Source: a virus (Duplodnaviria; Caudoviricetes). Taken from it: 42,366 nucleotides of DNA. Below the pieces are notes generated by a model that was not told where the DNA came from, did no database searches, and saw only the letters and a list, made by a program, of their open reading frames with translations. Below, piece after piece: positions 1,518 through 25,684 of the stretch. Positions within the stretch are counted from its first letter, which is position 1; each line of letters opens with the position of its first letter. The DNA is taken from IMG/VR virus record IMGVR_UViG_3300024981_000260, positions 1 to 42,366 of that record, one strand, 5' to 3'. The translations under genes and the position numbers were made by a program.

Positions 1518-1991
1518 ATGAATCAAAAACAATTAGAACAGAAGATTATAAGATTACATAAGTCTTCTGCAGAAGTACAGTCAGTCCTTGAGGCTGAATT
1601 CGGAAAAGAATTTTTCAATCGGGATATAACCGAGCGTATTAACGGATGGGAAGATATGTTAGCCGAAACAGGTCTACCGGATATACCGGAGTTTACAGAG
1701 CTTCCTGAACGCTTGAGAAATCATTTTAAGAAATACTATCGGTGTGTGGTTATGACTGAGGCTTATAACGAAGGTGAAAAAATGGATATATACAACGAAG
1801 ACGAATATCGCCACTATCCATATTTCGCTACAAATGGTGGTCCTTCTGCGTTCGCTTTCAGGTACTCGGGTTACGTTTTCACGACTGCGGATGCGGGGTC
1901 GGGTTCCCGCCTTTCGTTCAAAAGCGAGAAGCTGGCAAATATTGCGGGAACAAAACATGCTGATATCTATCGCGAATATTTAGAGTCATAA
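1518..1991 (+). CDS. DGR target protein 1 (157 aa)
   Basis: Contains VR1 in frame (GPSAFAFRYSGYVFTTADAGSGSRL); paralog of the next two ORFs. Confidence 0.92.
   Translation: MNQKQLEQKIIRLHKSSAEVQSVLEAEFGKEFFNRDITERINGWEDMLAETGLPDIPEFTELPERLRNHFKKYYRCVVMTEAYNEGEKMDIYNEDEYRHYPYFATNGGPSAFAFRYSGYVFTTADAGSGSRLSFKSEKLANIAGTKHADIYREYLES
1837..1914 (+). repeat. DGR variable repeat VR1
   Basis: Ungapped match to TR 2833-2910; 12 mismatches, all at TR adenines. Confidence 0.95.
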
Positions 1992-2011
1992 ATTATAAAA
2001 AAAAAGAAACA

Positions 2012-2383
2012 ATGGAAAAAGACATCACAAAACTAGTAACATCTTACGAAGATGCATGTGCCTACTTGAAAAAAGAACCGGTAAATGAAGCTGCTTTATT
2101 GGCAGCCGGTGCAACTCCAAAACAAATTGCAGGAATGAAATTAGAGGATATTACACTTGCCTTGAATGAAGGTAAGCCTACAGATATCTATAATGGCCAA
2201 CGCCGATGGTTTCCTGTCTCTTGGTCGGGTTCTGGTCGTTCTGCGTTCGCTTTCCGGTACTCGTATTACGATTACGCGATTGCGCATGCGGGGTCGGGTT
2301 CCCGCCTTTCGTATCACGAAGAGCGTATAAGCGACTATTCGGGAACGCACTTCTGTTCTCTTTGGCAAGAATATTTATCCTAA
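2012..2383 (+). CDS. DGR target protein 2 (123 aa)
   Basis: Contains VR2 in frame (GRSAFAFRYSYYDYAIAHAGSGSRL). Confidence 0.92.
   Translation: MEKDITKLVTSYEDACAYLKKEPVNEAALLAAGATPKQIAGMKLEDITLALNEGKPTDIYNGQRRWFPVSWSGSGRSAFAFRYSYYDYAIAHAGSGSRLSYHEERISDYSGTHFCSLWQEYLS
2233..2309 (+). repeat. DGR variable repeat VR2
   Basis: Ungapped match to TR; 11 mismatches at TR adenines plus one C>G at the 5' edge (2238). Confidence 0.95.
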
Positions 2384-2405
2384 ACAAATCCTCAAATATA
2401 TCACA

Positions 2406-2801
2406 ATGAAAGAATTAAAGAAATTACTTGAAGAAAGATTATCCTCTATAGAGGATGCATACAGAGAAACCGAGCTTCCTAAAATTGATTTTACAGTCTA
2501 TCCCGAAAAAATGCGAGAACATCAGGAAGCTGACTATAACGCAAAGGTAATAGTCGAAGCAGCCCGAAAAATTGAGAAAGAATGCGGATTGGGTGAAATA
2601 GATTGGTCTGACTCCAACCAACCTAAATGGATACCTTGGTTTTGGATGCGTCCTTCTGCGTTCGCTTTCGTGTGCTCGCTTTACGTTCGCACGGATGCGT
2701 TTGCGGGGTCGGGTTCCCGCCTTCGCGTGCTAAGCGAAGTCGCTGCCGATCATATCGGCAAAACATTTCCTGAAGTTTGGGAAGCTGTTCAACTCAAATA
2801 A
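2406..2801 (+). CDS. DGR target protein 3 (131 aa)
   Basis: Contains VR3 in frame (RPSAFAFVCSLYVRTDAFAGSGSRL). Confidence 0.92.
   Translation: MKELKKLLEERLSSIEDAYRETELPKIDFTVYPEKMREHQEADYNAKVIVEAARKIEKECGLGEIDWSDSNQPKWIPWFWMRPSAFAFVCSLYVRTDAFAGSGSRLRVLSEVAADHIGKTFPEVWEAVQLK
2650..2723 (+). repeat. DGR variable repeat VR3
   Basis: Ungapped match to TR; 15 mismatches, all at TR adenines. Confidence 0.95.
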
Positions 2802-2811
2802 TCAATCAAAT

Positions 2812-3010
2812 AAGGCTGTTTGCTTTGAACCCGTGGTCCTTCTGCGTTCGCTTTCAAGAACTCGAATTACGATAACACGAATGCGAATGCGGGGTCGGGT
2901 TCCCACAATTGTAAAGTAATAAACCAAAGCAAAAGCCCCGCCGCTTGGCGAAAAATAACAATTCAAAAGGTTCTGGTAGGGAAACCGAACGATCCGATAA
3001 GAAACAAAGG
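2812..3010 (+). ncRNA. Putative DGR RNA (TR plus structured flanks/spacer); boundaries approximate
   Basis: Stem 2814-2827/2925-2937 encloses TR; hairpins at 2939-2950 and 2970-2990. Confidence 0.65.
2833..2910 (+). repeat. DGR template repeat (TR)
   Basis: Intergenic; GGT CCT TCT GCG TTC GCT TTC AAG AAC TCG AAT TAC GAT AAC ACG AAT GCG AAT GCG GGG TCG GGT TCC CAC AAT; AAY-rich; in-frame TGA at 2826 just upstream, so not an ORF. Confidence 0.95.
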
Positions 3011-3024
3011 CAGTATATAATTAT

Positions 3025-3786
3025 ATGAAAAAACTTATATCATTTTCAGGGGGGGTAGAAAGCCGTACTATGGCAATACTATACGGAAATAAAGCTAATG
3101 CCATTTTTGCTGATACAGGTAATGAACATTTAGCCTTGTATGCCGGACTCAATACCGTTGAAAACAAAATAAGGGAATTTCATAATAATGATTTTAAAAT
3201 AATTAGAGTGAAGAATGAGGAATGGGATAGTCTTGATGACTATATAAGGTACTCAAAATTCTTTCCATCATTCAATCAAAGATTTTGTACACGTATGTTC
3301 AAGATTGAACCGATAGACAACTATCTAAAGCAATTCAAAGATGAAGGTGTAGAAATTATGATTGGACTGAATGCGGATGAAAAAGATTTGAGAACAGGAA
3401 ATCATGGACTACTTCCTTTCGTTCAATATTCTTACCCTTTAGCTGATGATGGTATAGATAGAAGGATGTGTTACGAGATATTAAATGCTGCGGGTATAGC
3501 ACCTAATTTTCCTCCCTATATGAAGAGAGGGGGATGTTATAATTGCTATTATAAGACAAAGAAGGAATATAAAGCAATGGCTTTTATGTCTCCAAATGAA
3601 TTCGATAAGATTATTTCTTTAGAAGAAGATATTCAAGATAAAAGGGAAGAATATTATCACATTATACCATGTATTCCAAATCTGCGAGAATTTAAGAAAG
3701 AAGCACAATCAATGCTTTTTGAGGCGAATGATATGTATCCGGTAATAAATACAGCAACTAAATGTGGTGTATTTTGTAACAGATAA
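3025..3786 (+). CDS. Phosphoadenosine phosphosulfate (PAPS) reductase-family / PP-loop protein
   Basis: ISFSGGVES PP-loop variant, FADTGNE, RFCTRMFKIEP, RGGCYNC, C-terminal CGVFC. Confidence 0.8.
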   Translation: MKKLISFSGGVESRTMAILYGNKANAIFADTGNEHLALYAGLNTVENKIREFHNNDFKIIRVKNEEWDSLDDYIRYSKFFPSFNQRFCTRMFKIEPIDNYLKQFKDEGVEIMIGLNADEKDLRTGNHGLLPFVQYSYPLADDGIDRRMCYEILNAAGIAPNFPPYMKRGGCYNCYYKTKKEYKAMAFMSPNEFDKIISLEEDIQDKREEYYHIIPCIPNLREFKKEAQSMLFEANDMYPVINTATKCGVFCNR

Positions 3787-4790
3787 TGATAATGAAGAGA
3801 ATAGGAAACTTATATACAAGAATTTACGATTTAGATAATCTATATCTTGCTTATAGTAAAGCGAAAACAGGAAAGTCCAAATCGAAAGGTGTAATACAAT
3901 TTGAGTCCAATCTGGATAATAATATCCTGCGGATACAAAAAGAGCTGATCGAACAAACATATATTACTTCAGAGTATAATGTTTTTACAATCCGTGATCC
4001 CAAAGAACGGACTATTTACAGCTTACCATTCCGTGATCGTGTTGTTCAGCATGCAATAATGAATATTATTGAAAGCCTATGGACTTCCGTATTTATCTCT
4101 CATTCTTACTCGAGTATAAAAGGCAAAGGTATTCATGGAGCATGGAAGCATATCAGGCGCGATATGAAAAATCGGAAACAAACGCAATATTGCCTGAAGA
4201 TGGATATTACAAAATTCTATCCTTCGATCGATCATCATATTATGAAACAGATAATCCGGAAGAAAATAAAGGATATAAAGCTTCTTGCTTTATTAGATGG
4301 GATTATCGATTCTGCTCCGGGTATGCCTATTGGTAATTATCTTTCTCAGTTTTTGGCTAATCTATACCTTTCTTATTTCGATCACTGGCTGAAAGAAGTA
4401 AAAAGAGTGAAATATTACTATCGTTATGCAGATGATTTAATTATTCTCGGAGATAGTAAACAGGATCTTCATTTGCTTCGCATCGATATACAAACCTATT
4501 TATCCGAAAATCTTAAGTTGAAACTGAAATCTAATTATCAGGTATTTCCTATCGTATCTCGAGGAATAGACTTTATAGGCTATGTGTTCTTTCATACACA
4601 TACGATGCTGCGTAAGCGAATAAAAAAGAACTTCTGTAGATGTGTAGCCAAATTGAATAGAAAGATAATGACGGCAAAAGACTACCGTATTAAAATATGT
4701 TCCTGGCTGGGATGGTGTAAGTATTGTAATTCTAAAAACTTAATTAAAACAATAATTAAACATGAAGAAGTTCTCAGATCTTGGTATTAA
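3786..4790 (+). CDS. DGR reverse transcriptase (start 3786 or 3792)
   Basis: PKERTI, FRDRVVQHA, KMDITKFYPSIDH, GMPIGNYLSQ (DGR-type GxxxSQ), YRYADD, GIDFIGY; 334 aa without maturase/endonuclease domains. Confidence 0.95.
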   Translation: MIMKRIGNLYTRIYDLDNLYLAYSKAKTGKSKSKGVIQFESNLDNNILRIQKELIEQTYITSEYNVFTIRDPKERTIYSLPFRDRVVQHAIMNIIESLWTSVFISHSYSSIKGKGIHGAWKHIRRDMKNRKQTQYCLKMDITKFYPSIDHHIMKQIIRKKIKDIKLLALLDGIIDSAPGMPIGNYLSQFLANLYLSYFDHWLKEVKRVKYYYRYADDLIILGDSKQDLHLLRIDIQTYLSENLKLKLKSNYQVFPIVSRGIDFIGYVFFHTHTMLRKRIKKNFCRCVAKLNRKIMTAKDYRIKICSWLGWCKYCNSKNLIKTIIKHEEVLRSWY

Positions 4791-5079
4791 GCCAATTGAT
4801 GATAAAGCAATATTCAGAGTACCAAGAATATCTATTACCGATATTTTAAACTGTGAAATAGAGATCCTTGATTACGAATCAGGTATAAAAACAAGTCAAG
4901 GACCTAACCGGTACATAGTAAGAATTAGGCACGAAGGCCAAGAATGTAAATTTTTTACAGATTCAAAACGAATAAAAGATACTCTAGATCAGGTAAAAAA
5001 AGAAGATTTTCCTTTTAAAACAACCATTCGTCAACTGAGATTTGATTCTGGTAGTGCTAAATCATTTGAATTTACATGA
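4762..5079 (+). CDS. Hypothetical 105-aa protein overlapping RT 3' end; candidate DGR accessory factor
   Basis: 29-nt overlap with RT; alternating beta-strand-like pattern. Confidence 0.75.
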   Translation: MKKFSDLGIKPIDDKAIFRVPRISITDILNCEIEILDYESGIKTSQGPNRYIVRIRHEGQECKFFTDSKRIKDTLDQVKKEDFPFKTTIRQLRFDSGSAKSFEFT

Positions 5080-5115: not shown

Positions 5116-8100
5116 ATGTCTCAAAACACTGCCATACCCCAACATATAATCGATCAGGTAAACGATATCGATATTATAGATGTAGTTAGCGAATATGTTT
5201 CACTCAAGCGTAGCGGCGTCAACTGGATAGGCCTCTGTCCGTTCCATACAGATAAATCACCATCGTTCTACGTCTCGCCATCGAAACAGATTTGCAAATG
5301 CTTTGCCTGTGGCAATCCCGAGAAAGGCGGTGTTATAAACTTTGTCCAACAGATAGAAGGCATTTCTTTTCCTTCTGCCGTTCGCCTATTGGCTAAGAAG
5401 CACAATATCGATATACCCGAAATACAACTTTCACCCGAGGAAGAAGCAAAAGAAAAACGCAAAGATTCGCAATATATAGCTCTTGCAGCCACACAAAAGC
5501 AGTTCGAAGATAACTATCAGGCTTCTCCCGACACACAGAACTATATAAACAATGTCCGTCAGATATCTGAAGATTTCCGAAAGCTATACGGTATCGGTTT
5601 TGCACCCGGAGGCAATCAGTTGTCAAAGCTGTTGCCGTCGAAAGGATATAAAACAGATACCTTGCTCTCAGTCGGTGTTCTCAAGCAGCATGAAGAAAGC
5701 GGAAATGTGTCCGACCGGTTCTATAATAGGGCTATGTTCCCATACTACGATTTGCAAGGACGTGTTATCGGTTTTACAGGACGTGATCTTACCGGGCAGG
5801 CAGAGCATGGGTTTAAGTATATAAACTCGCCGACTACCGACATTTTCAACAAAAGTATTGCAATATGGGGGTTATGGCAGGCAAAAAAACGCATATCCGA
5901 AACGCATAAGGTACATGTCGTAGAAGGACAGACCGATGTCATCAGCTTTGCTCAAAATGGATTGCAAAATACCGTTGCAGGATCGGGCACGGCATTTACC
6001 GATGCACAGGTAAAAATATTGCATCGCTTTGCCGATACGGTTGTATTGGTATACGATGGCGACCGAGCAGGGGTTAAGGCGAGTATGAAACAAATACAAA
6101 CATTCCTGTCGTATGGAATGACTGTGCTTTGCTTCCGTCTTCCTGAAGGCTTAGACCCTGACGACCTCGCAAAGAAGCTCGGTAAAGATTCACTTCCTAA
6201 AAAGATACAGCAAGGCGAACAATCTTTCGAAAAATACATGTTTGATATTCTCGATGCCGGCAAGAAAGAAAAGGAAGAGCGTATTGAGGCGCTCGATGCA
6301 ATTTGCGAATGTATTGCTTGTATTCCCGATACTGATTTGCAGTCGGAATATATCAGGTCTCTAGCCAATATGTTCGAGATGTCGGCAATCGATATCAAAA
6401 AGCGTGTGCAGGGACTAAATAAAAACAAGGTTGTTATAGAAGATTGGAAGCCCGGATTCTATGGCATCGAAGAAGCTTCTGCATTCCTGGCTAAAGATAA
6501 ATCGGTGGTCTGTGAACTAACGTTCGACCATGATCTATTTATGACCGATTCGCATGAGCGTCCCATTGTATACGCCTATGGAAATCCTTCGACGTACGAT
6601 ATACAGTCGCTGCGTACCAAGATTAACCGCTTCCGTGTTTCTGCCGACGAAGATAATATTGTACCGTCCTATACAGAAACGTCCGAACTGGGTACCTTAA
6701 AAATGCTATTCAAAGAGGGTTTTGATATTCAGGTGGAAGCATCTATTTATAACTCGAACCGTGACTACAGCGATGATTCCGAAGATGAAGAAAGCTTTGT
6801 CTCTTCCGATTCGTATTACGACTTCTGTAACTTCTATATCGTAGGCTATGGCTATATGATATCCGGAGAAACAAACGGTTTGCTAAAATCGGATATGATA
6901 GAACGCTGTGCCGAAGTAATTTCGGAACTCAAAGCTGCCGCTCGTGAGGTTATGATGAAAAGTTATGCCAAGCGTCTGGGTGTAGATAAGACAGCCCTCG
7001 ATAAGATTCTAAAGCCTATCCTTGCCACAAAGAAAGATAATAGCAAATTCAATGCGCAGCGGCTTGCCGAAATGGGCGATATTGCGACCTTATACGACTC
7101 TTCTGCCGTTCCTCCCTATGTGTTGGAAGATAAAGTATTAAATAATATTCATACCCTATACAATTTCTATCCCTTGCGTAACAGTAAAGGCGAAAATGTA
7201 GCATGGATGTATAAGAATTCGACAGGAAACGGTTATTCCAGAATTACAGATTTTGTAATCGAACCACTCTTACATGTATACGATAAGTTGTCTCAAGCCA
7301 ACAAGCGTGTTGTTTATCTTCGTCACATGCGCCCTGAATTAAATCGGTATGTAGAGTTGCAGAGTAGTGTTTTGGTAAATCTTACAGACCTGAATAAAAA
7401 AATATACGATGAAGGGAATTTTATTTTCAGAGGTACAAATTCTCAATGGCAAGATATCCGTTCGGCTATTTCCTATGACTTTACATTTTGTCGCGAATTG
7501 CGTATCCTGGGACAGCATACATCCGAAGTTTTTGCTTTTGGAAATGCAATCTTTCATAAAGTAAAAGATACTGAGACAGGAAGATCTAAATATGAAATTT
7601 CGTACGCCGACAAAATTGGTATTGTAAGTCATGGTAATGACAATTTCTATCTTCCGGCATTCTCCGAAATACGCATATCCGACTTTGATAAAGACGATAG
7701 CTATAAACAAGCTGTGCATCTCAAATATAAAGAAATACCCGAAAAAGACCGCCTTACGTTCGATCAGTGGGCCTCACTGATGGATGAAGTATACAAGATA
7801 AATAACAATGGCAAATGGGCTATATTGTACGCTATTACATCGGCTTTTCGTGATTTCATTTTCAAAGAACGCCGTTTCTTTACCGCATTGTTTTTCATCG
7901 GTCCTACTTCTTCAGGTAAATCTCAGGTAGCTTCCAGTATCCGCAATTTATTTATGGATGTCGATATGCCTTTGTTTAACCTAAATACAGGTTCTTTTGC
8001 GTCGCTTACCATGCTGATGGAACAGTTGCGAAATATTGTCCTGGTACTCGAGGAATATAACGATAAGCAAATACAAGATCAGGTATTTCAATTACTGAAG

Positions 8101-9183
8101 GCTGCCGTGTTAGATGGGGTAGGGCGCACCAAGGTAGCCGATACCGCTACTAAAACAACGACCAGTTCAGAGATAAATACACCGCTTGTTTTATTAGGAC
8201 AGGAAGCTCCGCAAAAAGACGACGGTTCGCTTTCAAACCGTTGTATCCTTCGTGATGTTCCTTACGTGGAAAAAGGAGAGTTTACAGAAGAAGAAACAGA
8301 ACTCTTCAACACGCTTAAAAAACACGAGCGGATAGGGCTTTGCAATGTTCTTACAGACATACTTTCTCTTCGCGATCTGGTCGAAAAAGAATATCTGACA
8401 ATCTTCGACAAAGAAGTAAAGCTTCTGAAAGATAAAGTAAAACAAAGCGTTACAAATACCGACGGACTAACCCGTATTATCAACGCCATAGCATTACTTA
8501 CAGCAACATGCAAGCTGATAGAACAATATACTAACCTAAAACTGCCATTTACATACGATACGTTTTTCGAGCTTGGTGTTACACAGGTTGTGTCGCAGCT
8601 TGAACAAATAGCAACTACAAACAAATTGGCGGCCTTCTTTAATGCGATCAACACTTTACTTACTCGTGGTAAGACTGTTCCGGGACGTGATTTCCGTATC
8701 AAACCTGAAACATCTGTTCGCCGTGTGGTAAAAGGAAAGGATACCGAACTGCTCGATCTTGAAACAGGAATGAATGTACTATATATAGACCTCAATGCTG
8801 TGTACTCTGATTACGAAAACTTCGTAGGGAAAGATGCGGCTGCACCTATGCAAACGCTTGTTATGAACTTTAAGTCAAACCCTGCATATCTCGGGTATAA
8901 TCGTGCTGTTCGCTACAATTGGACTGAGACGGGATATATAGAACGGGGTACCATCGAAGCTACCGACAACGGCGGCCAGATAAACAATCGTGCTGATCTG
9001 AAAATATTGAAAAAAGACCGAACAGGATCTGCTCACATGTTCAACTACGACATGCTGAAGACGCTTTTCGAGATAGACCTGGAACGCATCGAACATCAAG
9101 AACCACCAAAGAACGATGATGAACCACCCATGTTCAAAATGACTCCTCCTAGTGAAAAGAACGAAGATGATTTACCTTTTTAA
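5116..9183 (+). CDS. DnaG-type DNA primase fused to C-terminal P-loop NTPase (primase-helicase)
   Basis: CHC2 zinc finger CPFH...CKCFAC, KYINSP, TOPRIM VVEGQTDV and YDGDRAG, Walker A GPTSSGKS, Walker B LVLEEY. Confidence 0.92.
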   Translation: MSQNTAIPQHIIDQVNDIDIIDVVSEYVSLKRSGVNWIGLCPFHTDKSPSFYVSPSKQICKCFACGNPEKGGVINFVQQIEGISFPSAVRLLAKKHNIDIPEIQLSPEEEAKEKRKDSQYIALAATQKQFEDNYQASPDTQNYINNVRQISEDFRKLYGIGFAPGGNQLSKLLPSKGYKTDTLLSVGVLKQHEESGNVSDRFYNRAMFPYYDLQGRVIGFTGRDLTGQAEHGFKYINSPTTDIFNKSIAIWGLWQAKKRISETHKVHVVEGQTDVISFAQNGLQNTVAGSGTAFTDAQVKILHRFADTVVLVYDGDRAGVKASMKQIQTFLSYGMTVLCFRLPEGLDPDDLAKKLGKDSLPKKIQQGEQSFEKYMFDILDAGKKEKEERIEALDAICECIACIPDTDLQSEYIRSLANMFEMSAIDIKKRVQGLNKNKVVIEDWKPGFYGIEEASAFLAKDKSVVCELTFDHDLFMTDSHERPIVYAYGNPSTYDIQSLRTKINRFRVSADEDNIVPSYTETSELGTLKMLFKEGFDIQVEASIYNSNRDYSDDSEDEESFVSSDSYYDFCNFYIVGYGYMISGETNGLLKSDMIERCAEVISELKAAAREVMMKSYAKRLGVDKTALDKILKPILATKKDNSKFNAQRLAEMGDIATLYDSSAVPPYVLEDKVLNNIHTLYNFYPLRNSKGENVAWMYKNSTGNGYSRITDFVIEPLLHVYDKLSQANKRVVYLRHMRPELNRYVELQSSVLVNLTDLNKKIYDEGNFIFRGTNSQWQDIRSAISYDFTFCRELRILGQHTSEVFAFGNAIFHKVKDTETGRSKYEISYADKIGIVSHGNDNFYLPAFSEIRISDFDKDDSYKQAVHLKYKEIPEKDRLTFDQWASLMDEVYKINNNGKWAILYAITSAFRDFIFKERRFFTALFFIGPTSSGKSQVASSIRNLFMDVDMPLFNLNTGSFASLTMLMEQLRNIVLVLEEYNDKQIQDQVFQLLKAAVLDGVGRTKVADTATKTTTSSEINTPLVLLGQEAPQKDDGSLSNRCILRDVPYVEKGEFTEEETELFNTLKKHERIGLCNVLTDILSLRDLVEKEYLTIFDKEVKLLKDKVKQSVTNTDGLTRIINAIALLTATCKLIEQYTNLKLPFTYDTFFELGVTQVVSQLEQIATTNKLAAFFNAINTLLTRGKTVPGRDFRIKPETSVRRVVKGKDTELLDLETGMNVLYIDLNAVYSDYENFVGKDAAAPMQTLVMNFKSNPAYLGYNRAVRYNWTETGYIERGTIEATDNGGQINNRADLKILKKDRTGSAHMFNYDMLKTLFEIDLERIEHQEPPKNDDEPPMFKMTPPSEKNEDDLPF

Positions 9184-12976: not shown

Positions 12977-13429
12977 ATGATACTATCATACAAACAAAAA
13001 TTTCCGTGGGGCAGGCCGACAAACTTTGAGCAGAAGATCAAAGAAGGCATAAAGAAACACACTATCCGTGACGATATACACGGACGTTGGAAGCCTGGAA
13101 TGATGATACAGCATGCTCATGGTGTACGTACATCTAATTATAGATGCTTTGCTGAAGGTCAATGTATATATACACAAATACTGGAAATAAAAGCTATTGA
13201 TTCGCATGAATACAAATTATACCATTCTGAAATAAAGGTTTTAAGGTCTATCTTAAATGGCGATGATAAGATAATTTTTGAACTATTTGTAGATGGTCGC
13301 CGACTAAACAATGCAGAAATTCACGACTTTTCACGTAACGACGGTTTCGACGCTACAGAAGACTTCTTCAGATGGTTTAACGAACCTTGCACAAAGAAAA
13401 TTATTCATTTCACCGACTTTAAGTATTGA
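12977..13429 (+). CDS. ASCH/PUA-like domain protein
   Basis: GIKKHTIR...WKPG...GVRT...NDGF...FFRWF pattern. Confidence 0.65.
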   Translation: MILSYKQKFPWGRPTNFEQKIKEGIKKHTIRDDIHGRWKPGMMIQHAHGVRTSNYRCFAEGQCIYTQILEIKAIDSHEYKLYHSEIKVLRSILNGDDKIIFELFVDGRRLNNAEIHDFSRNDGFDATEDFFRWFNEPCTKKIIHFTDFKY

Positions 13430-13433
13430 TATT

Positions 13434-13715
13434 ATGAAAACATGTGCAAAATGCAAAGTAGAGAAGCCAATAGACAATTTTGGTTTTAAATCAAGGAGTA
13501 AAGACGGATATAACGGAGTATGCAAATCTTGTAAACGTATTCAAGATAGAGAAAGCAAAATACGAACAGATCGAAATAAAAGAGTGCGAGAAGACAGGAA
13601 GAAAAATCCTGAGAAGTACAGAAAGTACGGAAGAGATTACTACTATAGAAACAGAGAGGCTTGTATTGAGCGTTCGATGAAGAAATATCACAAACAACCG
13701 AATGACCCTCTCTGA
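13434..13715 (+). CDS. Basic Zn-finger protein resembling the N-terminus of phage HNH/EndoVII nucleases, no nuclease domain
   Basis: MKTCAKCKVEKPIDNF...KDG...CKSC; ATG 13434 in track ORF 13311. Confidence 0.65.
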   Translation: MKTCAKCKVEKPIDNFGFKSRSKDGYNGVCKSCKRIQDRESKIRTDRNKRVREDRKKNPEKYRKYGRDYYYRNREACIERSMKKYHKQPNDPL

Positions 13716-23518: not shown

Positions 23519-24052
23519 ATGAGAAGATTGTTATTTGTATTGTTGGTTTTCTTTCCTATTCTTATGTGTGCACAAAAGATCGATAAAAACGAGATAGACG
23601 AATTTACCGGGGTTAAAACAATTTACACTAACTGGGAAAAGTTTAAGACTGGTAATGGTCTCACAGGTAAGGATAATTTAATGTTTCGATTTATAAGCCT
23701 GGACGGCGTGGAAACCTTCCATTTGAAGTGGGTAACATGTGAAATGTTATCTATTAAAGAAGGGTCGAAGCTAATGTTTAAAATGTCCGATAATTCTATT
23801 ATAACACTTACATCAATTAGTTATGCTATTGCTGCCAAAGGTGATGGCGTTACCGGTTTATCTATGAGTGGGATACTAGGTATTAGTTGTATATACGATG
23901 GTAGTGATATCGAAGCATTTGCTAAAGATAGCTATTTGACTAAGCTAAGGATATACACCACTGATGGATATGTAGATATAGATATAAAAGAGAAAGATGC
24001 ACAGAAGATCAATAGGGCATATAAACTAATGAAAGAAGCTCCTAATAAATAA
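23519..24052 (+). CDS. Secreted/periplasmic protein (moron)
   Basis: Sec signal MRRLLFVLLVFFPILMCA-Q; DEFTG motif. Confidence 0.75.
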   Translation: MRRLLFVLLVFFPILMCAQKIDKNEIDEFTGVKTIYTNWEKFKTGNGLTGKDNLMFRFISLDGVETFHLKWVTCEMLSIKEGSKLMFKMSDNSIITLTSISYAIAAKGDGVTGLSMSGILGISCIYDGSDIEAFAKDSYLTKLRIYTTDGYVDIDIKEKDAQKINRAYKLMKEAPNK

Positions 24053-24070
24053 TAAATTATAATAAATACC

Positions 24071-24271
24071 ATGAAAAAATTATTATCAATACTATTAGTA
24101 CTCTTATTTGTTTCTTGTGCCCCTGGTAGTTCTGATTATGATTATAACGGATCTTCTGGCTGCGGTACATATAATGGTCATAGTTTGTATAAAGGATCTA
24201 AAGGGGGATGTTATTATTATAACAGCAAAGGAAATAAAGTGTATGTAGATCGCTCTCTTTGTAAATGTTGA
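24071..24271 (+). CDS. Small lipoprotein with PBCV basic-adaptor-like motif
   Basis: Lipobox LFVSC; LYKGSKGGCYYYNSKGNKVYV. Confidence 0.75.
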   Translation: MKKLLSILLVLLFVSCAPGSSDYDYNGSSGCGTYNGHSLYKGSKGGCYYYNSKGNKVYVDRSLCKC

Positions 24272-24297
24272 AGTTTTATTGAAAAGTATAAAATACT

Positions 24298-24651
24298 ATG
24301 GGATTTTCTTATCGAAAACGGGTAAAACTTATGCCTGGTGTTAATATTAATCTAAGCAAAAAAGGTGCTAGTGTAACTGTCGGTATCCGAGGTGCTAGTG
24401 TGAATATTGGAAAGTCCGGAATATATCAAAATTTAGGTATTCCGGGTACTGGTATATATTCGAGAGAAAAAATATCAGGGAATGATTCCGTTAAATCGGA
24501 TCAAAGTACATTAAAAACCAAAGAAGCTAAAAGGCCTGTATCTGAAAAGAGATATAAAAAAGATTATTCTTCTGTTTATTTATCTGTGCTATACGTACTT
24601 GTTATTATTCTTGTTATAGGTATTATCATAAGCTATACAGTTAACAACTAA
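24298..24651 (+). CDS. DUF4236-like protein with C-terminal TM helix
   Basis: MGFSYRKRVKLMPGVNINLSKKG...GIPGTGIYSR. Confidence 0.8.
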   Translation: MGFSYRKRVKLMPGVNINLSKKGASVTVGIRGASVNIGKSGIYQNLGIPGTGIYSREKISGNDSVKSDQSTLKTKEAKRPVSEKRYKKDYSSVYLSVLYVLVIILVIGIIISYTVNN

Positions 24652-24670
24652 TGTTGTACAATGAAATATT

Positions 24671-25366
24671 TCATCTGTTTATATATACCAATAATATTAT
24701 GAACATGAAGAAAAAACTTAAAGTAATAACAATCTTAAATATTTTTTCTTTGTGGTTTTTTGCAACTTTCAATAATCTTTTATTTTGATCGTCTATTATT
24801 TGTAGATTTTTTGTTAATTTTTCGTTCTCTTTTTCGCAAATATCTAATTGGTCTGCTAGTTTTTTTAATTGGTCTGATATATTAGTTAATTCTTTTTCTA
24901 AGTTGTTGTTTGCTAAAAATAGATCAGAGACTTTACCTATTTCTATTTCTAGCTTAGCGCTAGCATCTATTTTACCGTTTATTAATTCTGATAATAAAGA
25001 TTCTTTTCTTTTTTCTAAATTGGATATTAATTTATCTTTTTTCTCTTTTTCTTCATTAAGAGAAATTAATTCTATTTTTAGTATATCTATAAATTCATTT
25101 ATTTGAGATTGATTTGAAAAGTTTGTGTCTACATATTCGAAGAAACCGTATCTTTTTATGTCGTATTTTAGTCTATTAATTCTATCTGTTAGAAAATTTT
25201 TAGCTTCTAAAATATCATTAATTCGAACTAGCTCACGCATGTTATCGTAATCTGTATACCCTATATTATAATTATAATGAGACTTTTTGATGTATTCAGC
25301 TAATATTTCATTTGTTGTAGTTTTCCGTGATATGTCTAATATAGAATAATAGTCTTTCATGTTCAC
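24671..25366 (-). CDS. Degenerate J-domain-like, coiled-coil, C-terminally anchored membrane protein
   Basis: KDYYSILDIS...EAKNFLTDRINRLKYD; lacks HPD; very AT-rich. Confidence 0.65.
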   Translation of the reverse strand: MNMKDYYSILDISRKTTTNEILAEYIKKSHYNYNIGYTDYDNMRELVRINDILEAKNFLTDRINRLKYDIKRYGFFEYVDTNFSNQSQINEFIDILKIELISLNEEKEKKDKLISNLEKRKESLLSELINGKIDASAKLEIEIGKVSDLFLANNNLEKELTNISDQLKKLADQLDICEKENEKLTKNLQIIDDQNKRLLKVAKNHKEKIFKIVITLSFFFMFIILLVYINR

Positions 25367-25390
25367 TTAAATTTTATGTGAAACTATGAA

Positions 25391-25684
25391 TTATTTCTTA
25401 TTATCCTCTATTTCAGCTAATATTTTTTTTATGTCTTCTATTGAATTTATTTCATAAGGTCTATTGTTGTATCGAACAATACCTATTATTTCCCCCTCTT
25501 TTGTTTTTGTGAATAATTCCGATATGTTGCAACCTATAGCATTCGCTATACGCTCTAATACTTCAACCGATGGATTGCCATTTATGTGCTGAGATAATCC
25601 AACCCGTGATATTCCCATCGTTTCAGCCACCTCATTAATTGATAGACCTTTTTCTTTTATTAGCTCCTTTATCCGTAAACCCAT
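25391..25684 (-). CDS. XRE/Cro-CI family HTH transcriptional regulator
   Basis: LRIKELIKEKGLSINEVAETMGISRVGLSQHINGNPSVEVLERIANAIG. Confidence 0.92.
   Translation of the reverse strand: MGLRIKELIKEKGLSINEVAETMGISRVGLSQHINGNPSVEVLERIANAIGCNISELFTKTKEGEIIGIVRYNNRPYEINSIEDIKKILAEIEDNKK

What the first reader, a model, noticed from the sequence alone, without database searches (positions are those of the whole stretch)
1518..2910. One-template, three-target DGR hypermutating small paralogous proteins in the phage early/replication region rather than a tail gene
Seen: TR 2833-2910 aligns without gaps to VR1, VR2 and VR3 with 12, 11 and 15 mismatches at TR adenines and a single non-A mismatch overall (5' edge of VR2). 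The three genes are adjacent and clearly paralogous (DITER/DITKL..EDA..ALNEG..W.P.F..SAFAF..AGSGSRL..A...G......Y/W). They are divergent outside the VR yet essentially identical at non-A positions inside it, which implies recent retrohoming into all three. Known: classic phage DGRs (Bordetella BPP-1 mtd) diversify the C-terminus of a virion receptor-binding CLec protein. Here the targets are only 123-157 aa, lack signal/TM/trimerisation segments, keep 24-25 constant residues after the VR, and sit upstream of the primase about 39 kb from the tailspike. Inference: a panel of intracellular hypervariable binders (anti-defence, host takeover or phage-phage competition), possibly hetero-oligomeric. 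15 core adenines allow 4^15 (about 1e9) DNA variants per gene.
Basis: partly seen in the sequence, partly recalled or inferred. Interest (0 to 1): 0.93.

Follow-up and report, generated by a model that had tools for sequence, protein, structure and literature searches.

The report
Phage mutator diversifying three early proteins
A phage, likely of Dysgonomonas gut bacteria, carries an intact mutator element that has rewritten one short stretch in three small neighbouring genes that lie among its replication genes, not its tail genes; this target family is already catalogued, and the proteins likely act inside the cell as variable binders, likely against host defences.

Summary
One template repeat (2833-2910) matches three variable repeats with 12, 11 and 15 adenine mismatches and one other mismatch. 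A spacer RNA and an intact reverse transcriptase (3786-4790) follow. Close relatives differ almost only at template adenines in all three genes, so each has been diversified.

The novelty is lower than claimed. The target family is catalogued (Wu 2018 CLec3/f4; Roux 2021 PC_00007, 'non-structural/unknown'). It is homologous over its full length to the remote second target of LoVEphage, very likely the Quimbyvirus target that Benler 2021 linked to phage-host conflict. This scan also noted the cassette five times on other DNA.

Two targets is the norm; the middle gene and a PAPS-reductase-like gene come and go among close strains. The cassette moves between unrelated Bacteroidota phages, sits among early genes, and has no tail target in five near-complete relatives.

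Added here: tandem fusions and a weak complex prediction hint that paralogues pair. The gene behind the RT is a predicted OB-fold protein, fused to the RT in Hankyphage, and a candidate Avd substitute. Function is untested; an intracellular counter-defence binder is my best guess.

The parts
1518..1991 (+). Target 1, 157 aa, 'long' type with N-terminal helical extension; phrog_11581
1837..1914 (+). VR1 (variable core 1841-1907)
2012..2383 (+). Target 2, 123 aa; separate divergent subtype, absent from some close strains
   Evidence: tree; joints 1991-2403 and 2004-2400
2233..2309 (+). VR2 (one non-adenine difference from TR)
2406..2801 (+). Target 3, 131 aa, 'short' type next to the TR
2650..2723 (+). 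VR3
2833..2910 (+). Template repeat, intergenic; 15 core adenines in 9 codons
   Evidence: 1 of 78 positions differs in relative L083
2911..3013 (+). Spacer RNA 3' of TR; two conserved stems with compensatory changes; resembles Rfam RT-17 (37.7 bits, below the 40.4 cut-off, E 7.9e-5)
3025..3786 (+). PAPS-reductase/SspD-like gene, a polymorphic insertion (3012-3791) at the RT start; not a DGR component
3786..4790 (+). DGR reverse transcriptase, 334 aa, intact YADD; likely start at 3792
4762..5079 (+). 105-aa predicted OB-fold protein overlapping the RT stop; candidate accessory factor (PAG1-like)
5116..9183 (+). DnaG-type primase gene (context: replication region)

Best explanation
This is an intact diversity-generating retroelement whose single template has rewritten an 11-codon stretch in three small paralogous genes of a phage's replication region, and the proteins likely work inside the infected cell as variable binders, likely as a long-plus-short pair that blocks fast-changing host defence proteins. 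Shown: TR, three VRs, RT, adenine-specific variation between strains, position among early genes in unrelated phages, no tail target in relatives. By established DGR biology (BPP-1): TR plus spacer RNA is reverse-transcribed with errors opposite adenines and the cDNA replaces each VR. Inferred: the OB-fold protein behind the RT is the accessory factor in place of Avd; the targets are made early and stay in the cytoplasm; targets 1 and 3 pair and target 2 is an optional third partner. The least supported step is the ligand (host defence protein versus rival phage protein). My odds: DGR 0.98, non-virion 0.85, conflict-type binder 0.6.
For: Adenine-specific change against relative L083: 13/15, 7/15 and 9/15 TR-adenine sites differ versus 0/52, 1/52 and 0/52 other VR sites and 16/407, 32/305, 46/329 elsewhere in the genes. 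Orthologues at 80% identity or more differ at 4-9 of 11 core codons (9, 8 and 14 proteins, self excluded, of 120 listed). All 13 listed differences inside VR1 and VR3 in four other runs fall on TR adenines (298 further rows not shown). Flanks of 15 related loci (82 of 123 ORFs scanned) give RecT, NinB, NinG, DnaC/DnaD, SSB, repressor, antirepressor, Mu transposition and methyltransferase families and no tail family. No remote VR in 5 of 5 near-complete records or in the genome holding L083. Acidic, hydrophilic proteins (pI 5.3-5.9); 4 of 270 homologues have a hydrophobic 19-mer above 1.6. Where a DGR does target a tail gene, the same family is a remote second target among early or small genes: LoVEphage BI-TP1 (14 A / 0 other), crAss-like cr52_1, Versailles. 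Pairing: 18 of 150 best 50%-cluster representatives are tandem two-domain fusions; T1+T3 complex score 0.49, best of 3 controls 0.00, runs agree in at least 87% of contacts, partner pLDDT at least 77 (weak: at 0.60 or under only 18 of 157 solved complexes and both of the 2 in 215 mismatches that passed).
Against: No ligand, expression or localisation data. No Pfam, NCBIfam or PADLOC match for the three targets, none shared by more than 1 of 117 long-type homologues. The VR loop is poorly modelled (pLDDT under 50 at 110-117). A 2026 cohort preprint found no DGR targeting known anti-defence proteins (passage). Roux et al. leave open that PC_00007 are unknown structural proteins. LoVEphage, Versailles and cr52_1 showed one family member each in the best hit, and 6 of 62 loci have one, so pairing is not obligatory. 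Head-protease or weak minor-head matches lie within about 3 kb downstream in 4 of 15 loci. The window is cut inside its last gene, so a tail VR in this very genome is not excluded.
Confidence: 0.55

Rival explanations
1. The targets are prophage-encoded sensors or blockers of rival phages (superinfection exclusion): the variable loop would recognise incoming phage proteins in the lysogen.
For: Found in proviruses and in 15 of 121 genomes of the host family; intracellular and hypervariable, like DGR 'antigen sensors' of multicellular bacteria (recalled, not read here).
Against: No effector domain in the targets or conserved beside them. They lie in the strand and region of recombination and replication genes, which are usually repressed in lysogens (established lambdoid logic, not measured). 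A homologue occurs in a crAss-like phage.
Confidence: 0.15
2. The targets are unrecognised virion proteins (decoration, accessory receptor-binding or ejected proteins), so the DGR would still tune particle-surface binding.
For: Most phage DGR targets are tail proteins. The Roux preprint guessed PC_00007 were unknown structural proteins. One TR serves both the tail protein and this family in three phages. The Versailles homologue is annotated 'tail protein' by profile match.
Against: Early-region location in lambdoid, Mu-like and crAss-like backbones. The cassette moves between phages that share none of the other 33 window proteins. PhANNs called 1.6% of PC_00007 structural. No fibre or trimer domain.
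Confidence: 0.12
3. The targets are host-takeover or lysis-lysogeny adaptors that bind a conserved host or phage protein (protease, polymerase, replisome), with the DGR retuning them after host switches.
For: Small acidic proteins next to repressors, antirepressors and replication genes; broad host spread within Bacteroidota.
Against: A conserved partner needs little diversity, yet close strains differ at 4-9 of 11 codons and the template allows about 6e8 sequences per gene (hand calculation).
Confidence: 0.13
4. The cassette is largely selfish cargo and the targets have little current function.
For: It moves as a five-gene unit; gene gain and loss among strains; a likely RT-less remnant in G063; no variation in four same-study assemblies.
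Against: Open frames and conserved scaffold residues across 3,366 representatives at E 0.001 or better; the family is kept as a remote target, tens of kb from the RT, in unrelated phages.
Confidence: 0.05

Closest known systems
Roux et al. 2021 target cluster PC_00007 ('Phage_other'), DGR clade 1, RT cluster REF_DGR_[t122] (PMC8144416 supplements)
   Same: Small FCB-phage targets, VR at about 0.75 of the length, classed non-structural/unknown; 208 RT OTUs of that cluster carry PC_00007; the single DGR listed for the dataset behind locus L002 (RT 73% identical to ours) is PC_00007.
   Different: A catalogue entry only in what I saw: no function, context analysis or accessory gene. The link to L002 is by dataset id, not by sequence.
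Wu et al. 2018 Lineage 3, CLec3, category f4, architecture A1 (t120 Galbibacter TG-TG-TR-RT; t121 Pedobacter TG-TR-RT) (PMC5758913)
   Same: One or two small adjacent targets before TR-RT, no avd, similar scaffold motifs by eye.
   Different: Here three targets and an inserted PAPS-reductase-like gene; the authors note these targets align poorly to other CLec3 targets.
Second, non-structural DGR target of Quimbyvirus/LoVEphage (Benler 2021, PMC8008677; Dahlman 2025, PMC12629997)
   Same: Full-length homology of BI-TP1 gp84 to our family (hhalign 99.1%, E 4.7e-19); gp84 is 93-95% identical to LoVEphage proteins; same neighbourhood of methyltransferases and tRNA ligase; both papers propose a phage-host conflict role.
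   Different: There one remote copy shares a TR with a tail protein; here the DGR is dedicated to two or three adjacent copies with a shorter TR. Equating LoVEphage with Quimbyvirus rests on both matching CP011531.1 at about 95%.
Bordetella phage BPP-1 DGR (mtd-avd-TR-brt)
   Same: Adenine-specific retrohoming; TR plus spacer upstream of RT.
   Different: No Avd found; targets are small early-region proteins, not the tail receptor-binding protein; VR followed by about 26 constant residues.
Wu 2018 potential accessory gene PAG1; phi29 gp5 / PRD1 P12-type SSBs (for ORF 4762-5079)
   Same: PAG1 shares the motif pattern by eye; predicted OB fold with PRD1 P12 at Z 5.6, rmsd 3.2, 85 aligned; ESM Atlas 0.96 to a cluster with 44% Phi29_Phage_SSB.
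   Different: Wu called PAG1 tenuous (3 DGRs). Here it is RT-adjacent in 80 of 80 best loci and fused to the RT in Hankyphage and L064. Structural scores are modest and nucleic-acid binding is untested.

Membership tests
Diversity-generating retroelement | TR-VR pair differing at TR adenines | tested here: met
Diversity-generating retroelement | Intact DGR-type RT next to the TR | tested here: met
   334 aa, YADD, PF00078 E 3.6e-21, phrog_1423 E 2.8e-122; closest annotated RTs are those of DGR-bearing phages
Diversity-generating retroelement | VR variation between strains at adenine positions with stable TR | tested here: met
Diversity-generating retroelement | Structured spacer RNA between TR and RT | tested here: met
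   9 of 10 predicted pairs with compensatory changes in 18 chosen sequences; RT-17-like, below cut-off
Diversity-generating retroelement | Ongoing retrohoming in this strain | tested here: inconclusive
   only assembled contigs available; no differences in 4 runs of one study
BPP-1-type tail DGR | avd gene in the cassette | tested here: not met
   no Avd-like ORF between target 3 and TR (31 nt gap); no such Pfam/PHROG hit among neighbours
BPP-1-type tail DGR | Target is a tail/receptor-binding gene in the structural module | tested here: not met
   early-region context and no tail VR in relatives; virion presence itself not testable
Wu CLec3-f4 / Roux PC_00007 | Small target, VR near 0.75 of length, TG(-TG)-TR-RT, no avd, Bacteroidota phage | tested here: met
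Wu CLec3-f4 / Roux PC_00007 | Sequence clustering with the published members | tested here: inconclusive
   t120/t121 compared by eye only; PC_00007 link through the dataset id of a 73%-identical RT
Quimbyvirus/LoVEphage second target family | Full-length homology to the remote target | tested here: met
   also Versailles 99.7% and cr52_1 98.1%
Quimbyvirus/LoVEphage second target family | Shares its TR with a tail target and lies remote from the RT | tested here: not met
   targets adjacent to TR; no tail VR
C-type lectin fold | Structural match to solved CLec domains | tested here: inconclusive
   model mostly helical with unresolved VR; no Foldseek hit, best VIA Z 3.4
OB-fold SSB-like accessory (PAG1) | OB fold | tested here: inconclusive
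   beta-barrel model pLDDT 85; top rows are OB folds but best Z 5.8 and no Foldseek E under 0.001
OB-fold SSB-like accessory (PAG1) | Tight linkage or fusion to DGR RT | tested here: met
OB-fold SSB-like accessory (PAG1) | Binds ssDNA/RNA and is needed for retrohoming | not testable with these tools
   needs biochemistry and a deletion assay

The most novel reading that the evidence does not exclude
Bacteroidota phages carry a mobile, antibody-like intracellular system: two or three separately hypermutated small domains pair combinatorially (about 1e17 pairs) to neutralise host defence proteins, driven by an Avd-less DGR whose helper is an OB-fold single-strand-binding protein.
Probability: 0.2. 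Interest if true: 0.85.

Novelty: new member of a known kind. Interest (0 to 1): 0.42.

Why it matters
What phage DGRs do beyond tail fibres is an open question named by Benler 2021 and Dahlman 2025. This locus shows that whole DGRs are dedicated to this small-protein family, and that the same family is the unexplained second target in LoVEphage, Versailles and a crAss-like phage. Cultured phages (BI-TP1, Versailles) make it testable. The OB-fold gene offers a concrete candidate for how Avd-less Lineage 3 DGRs work. The locus itself is one more member of a catalogued group.

Tried and rejected
Chance repeats or gene conversion among paralogues: rejected, mismatches are confined to TR adenines. 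Target 2 as a recent duplicate of 1 or 3: rejected; it groups with 11 other T2-like proteins at 100/99 support on a long branch (53 rows; its join with LoVE gp84 may be a long-branch artefact). PAPS-reductase-like gene as a DGR part: rejected, absent in L083 and skipped in two runs. C-type lectin or any solved fold for target 1: no Foldseek match, best VIA Z 3.4, no PDB sequence match under E 0.01; this shows neither a new fold nor a different one. BFVD hits are uncharacterised phage proteins; ESM Atlas hits unnamed. Within-sample variation: none in four same-study assemblies, one possibly the source; contigs drop rare variants. Expression: no RNA holder listed. Promoter scan at background (18 vs 18.4). 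The codon-diversity printout was in the wrong frame and is discarded; the figure used (13 x 15^5 x 4^3, about 6.3e8) is a hand calculation from the codons. My OB profile did not detect, at E under 1, the similar-looking genes two ORFs behind tail-type RTs, so that resemblance is by eye only. Searches for a published OB-fold or SSB DGR accessory listed no paper on it; I saw listings only, and the library lacks most subscription papers. bioRxiv supplements were closed and figures (Wu Fig. 2, Roux Fig. 2, Benler Fig. 2, Dahlman ED Fig. 3c) are not held; they may describe this family further.

Full report
1. Observation. Three adjacent ORFs (1518-1991, 2012-2383, 2406-2801; 157, 123, 131 aa) each carry a repeat that matches the intergenic stretch 2833-2910 without gaps. 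With each VR's own edges the mismatches are 12, 11 and 15 at TR adenines and one elsewhere. Three adenine mismatches per VR at the 3' end are identical in all VRs and are likely a constant end difference; the variable core has 9, 8 and 12 of 15 adenines changed. No other site in the window has fewer than 23 non-A mismatches of 52. The 15 adenines lie in 9 codons of an 11-codon stretch, about 6e8 protein sequences per gene (hand calculation).

2. The rest of the element. An intact 334-aa RT lies at 3786-4790. The 100 nt after the TR form two stems with compensatory changes in 18 related sequences that I chose and resemble Rfam RT-17 just under its cut-off. A PAPS-reductase/SspD-like gene sits exactly between spacer and RT start. 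It is missing in L083, whose RT is 97% identical, and skipped by contigs of two runs; the spacer is left whole. No Avd was found. A 105-aa ORF overlaps the RT stop. The window is the whole held record, ends inside its last gene and encodes primase, head protease and other phage genes. Named homologues are mostly Dysgonomonas, so the host is inferred.

3. Diversification is real. Against L083 the TR differs at 1 of 78 sites, while the VRs differ at 13/15, 7/15 and 9/15 TR-adenine sites and 0/52, 1/52 and 0/52 other sites. Orthologues at 80% identity or more differ at 4-9 of the 11 core codons in all three paralogues. In four further runs the 13 listed differences inside VR1 and VR3 all map to TR adenines (298 rows not shown). 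Four assemblies from one study showed no difference from the window, so current activity in this strain is unproven.

4. Distribution. Of the 80 best RT relatives among 445 in viral contigs, 62 have at least 1.5 kb upstream: 46 carry two family members, 6 one, 2 three, 8 none (loci are partly redundant). Of 70 evaluable loci found with the 105-aa gene, 63 have two, 6 one and 1 three. Target 2 is its own subtype and is skipped in three of four runs. Three targets also occur in L083, G108 and G033. Four whole records share only the five cassette genes of 38 window proteins, and one shares 27, so the cassette moves between phages. Flanks of 15 loci give recombination, replication, repressor and Mu transposition genes, no tail family, and head-related matches in four (82 of 123 ORFs). 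Five records at 93-100% completeness have no remote VR (scanned in 20-kb pieces). The family has 3,366 representatives at 50% identity and occurs in 15 of 121 genomes of the host family.

5. Link to known targets. The only annotated phage hit for target 1 was BI-TP1 gp84. It is homologous over its length, 93-95% identical to LoVEphage proteins, and a remote second VR of a tail-targeting DGR. Its neighbours are methyltransferases and a tRNA ligase, as Benler et al. describe for the non-structural Quimbyvirus target they tie to phage-host conflict (PMC8008677: abstract, passages, section 17). LoVEphage and Quimbyvirus both match CP011531.1 at about 95% (PMC8525569 passages). Dahlman et al. report four prophage species with a second VR near counter-defence genes (PMC12629997 passages). 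The same tail-plus-remote pattern holds in cr52_1 and Versailles. Wu et al. list t120 (TG-TG-TR-RT) and t121 as Lineage 3, CLec3, f4 (PMC5758913: passages, part of section 14, supplement rows). Roux et al. class such targets as PC_00007, non-structural/unknown (PMC8144416: passages and supplement rows; the preprint guessed structural). An earlier scan note gave me the lead to those tables. Passages of seven other papers showed nothing on this family; one found no DGR targeting known anti-defence proteins.

6. The proteins. They are acidic and hydrophilic with no family match beyond unknown-function phrog_11581. The AlphaFold model of target 1 is mostly helical (pLDDT 84) with a poorly resolved VR loop and no solved match, so the CLec fold is neither confirmed nor excluded. 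Eighteen of 150 representatives are tandem two-domain fusions, many with the long type first as in the gene order. A T1+T3 prediction gave 0.49 against 0.00 for three controls, contacts agreeing at 87% or more, partner pLDDT 77 or more. The tool rates this weak (18 of 157 true and both of 2 in 215 false passes lie at 0.60 or under), and the chains are paralogues, so self-pairing could give the same signal.

7. The 105-aa gene. It models as a beta-barrel whose best matches are OB folds, including PRD1 SSB P12 (Z 5.6, rmsd 3.2, 85 aligned; modest), with a phi29-SSB-like neighbour in the ESM Atlas. It follows the RT in 62 of 78 RT-selected loci by my distance rule, and an RT is adjacent in 80 of the 80 best loci found with it (357 confirmed). 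In annotated phages 23 of 29 matches fall inside the RT gene and 6 in LoVEphage-type records; Hankyphage RT and L064 are in-frame fusions, and BI-TP1 gp9 joins it to the RT's C-terminal piece. Twelve of 14 genomes with it also have the target family, among 121. By eye it is Wu's PAG1, and Wu notes Lineage 3 lacks avd. The Hankyphage paper proposed a different small ORF as Avd-like and has no occurrence of 'fused' or 'OB-fold' (PMC6199706 passages). It was missing behind 8 of 8 tail-type RTs by my profile. An earlier scan note reached the same idea, seen after my own tests.

8. Mechanism and verdict. Shown: a complete DGR that has diversified three early-region genes. Inferred: intracellular variable binders, likely paired, likely for counter-defence (0.55); rivals are superinfection sensing, virion protein, takeover adaptor and selfish cargo. 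It is a DGR and works like BPP-1's but is not a tail-type member; it is best filed as a new three-target member of the CLec3-f4/PC_00007 group. Interest 0.42: real and testable, with an open function, but catalogued and already noted by this scan.

Noticed in passing
window 4762-5079; L182:4023-5327; L064: Predicted OB-fold gene tied to the RT, fused to it in Hankyphage and L064, placed upstream of the RT in L065 and L066 (between targets and TR in L066); candidate Avd substitute (PAG1-like).
   Followed up: partly
window 3012-3791: PAPS-reductase/SspD-like gene inserted exactly at the RT start codon, present or absent among close strains.
   Followed up: partly
L183:3977-4381 and L184 (crAss-like cr52_1); L185:4001-4582 and L186 (Versailles): Remote second DGR targets of this family tens of kb from the RT; the Versailles gene is annotated 'tail protein' though it lies among recombination genes.
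   Followed up: yes
L082:4713-6256 (BI-TP1): RT split over three ORFs as described for Quimbyvirus; the last ORF fuses the RT C-terminus to the OB domain.
   Followed up: partly
L033 / L084:4133-5264: Tandem duplication of the last target together with its TR: two TRs and two copies with different VRs.
   Followed up: no
G063:C10:27578-28992: Two targets followed within about 300 nt by a partial OB gene; the RT seems deleted.
   Followed up: no
window 1893-1910 and 2288-2305: GC-rich 6-bp stem followed by a T-rich run at the 3' end of VR1 and VR2, absent from the TR end; possibly a targeting signal.
   Followed up: no
window 23519-25684: Cargo-like island between terminase-like and portal-like genes: DUF4236 protein, a DnaJ-like-looking ORF and an HTH gene on the opposite strand.
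   Followed up: no
window 5116-9183: 1355-aa DnaG-type primase with a long C-terminal region that has a P-loop motif; shared with G016 and L083.
   Followed up: no
window 13311-13715: HNH/endonuclease VII-like ORF that appears truncated.
   Followed up: no
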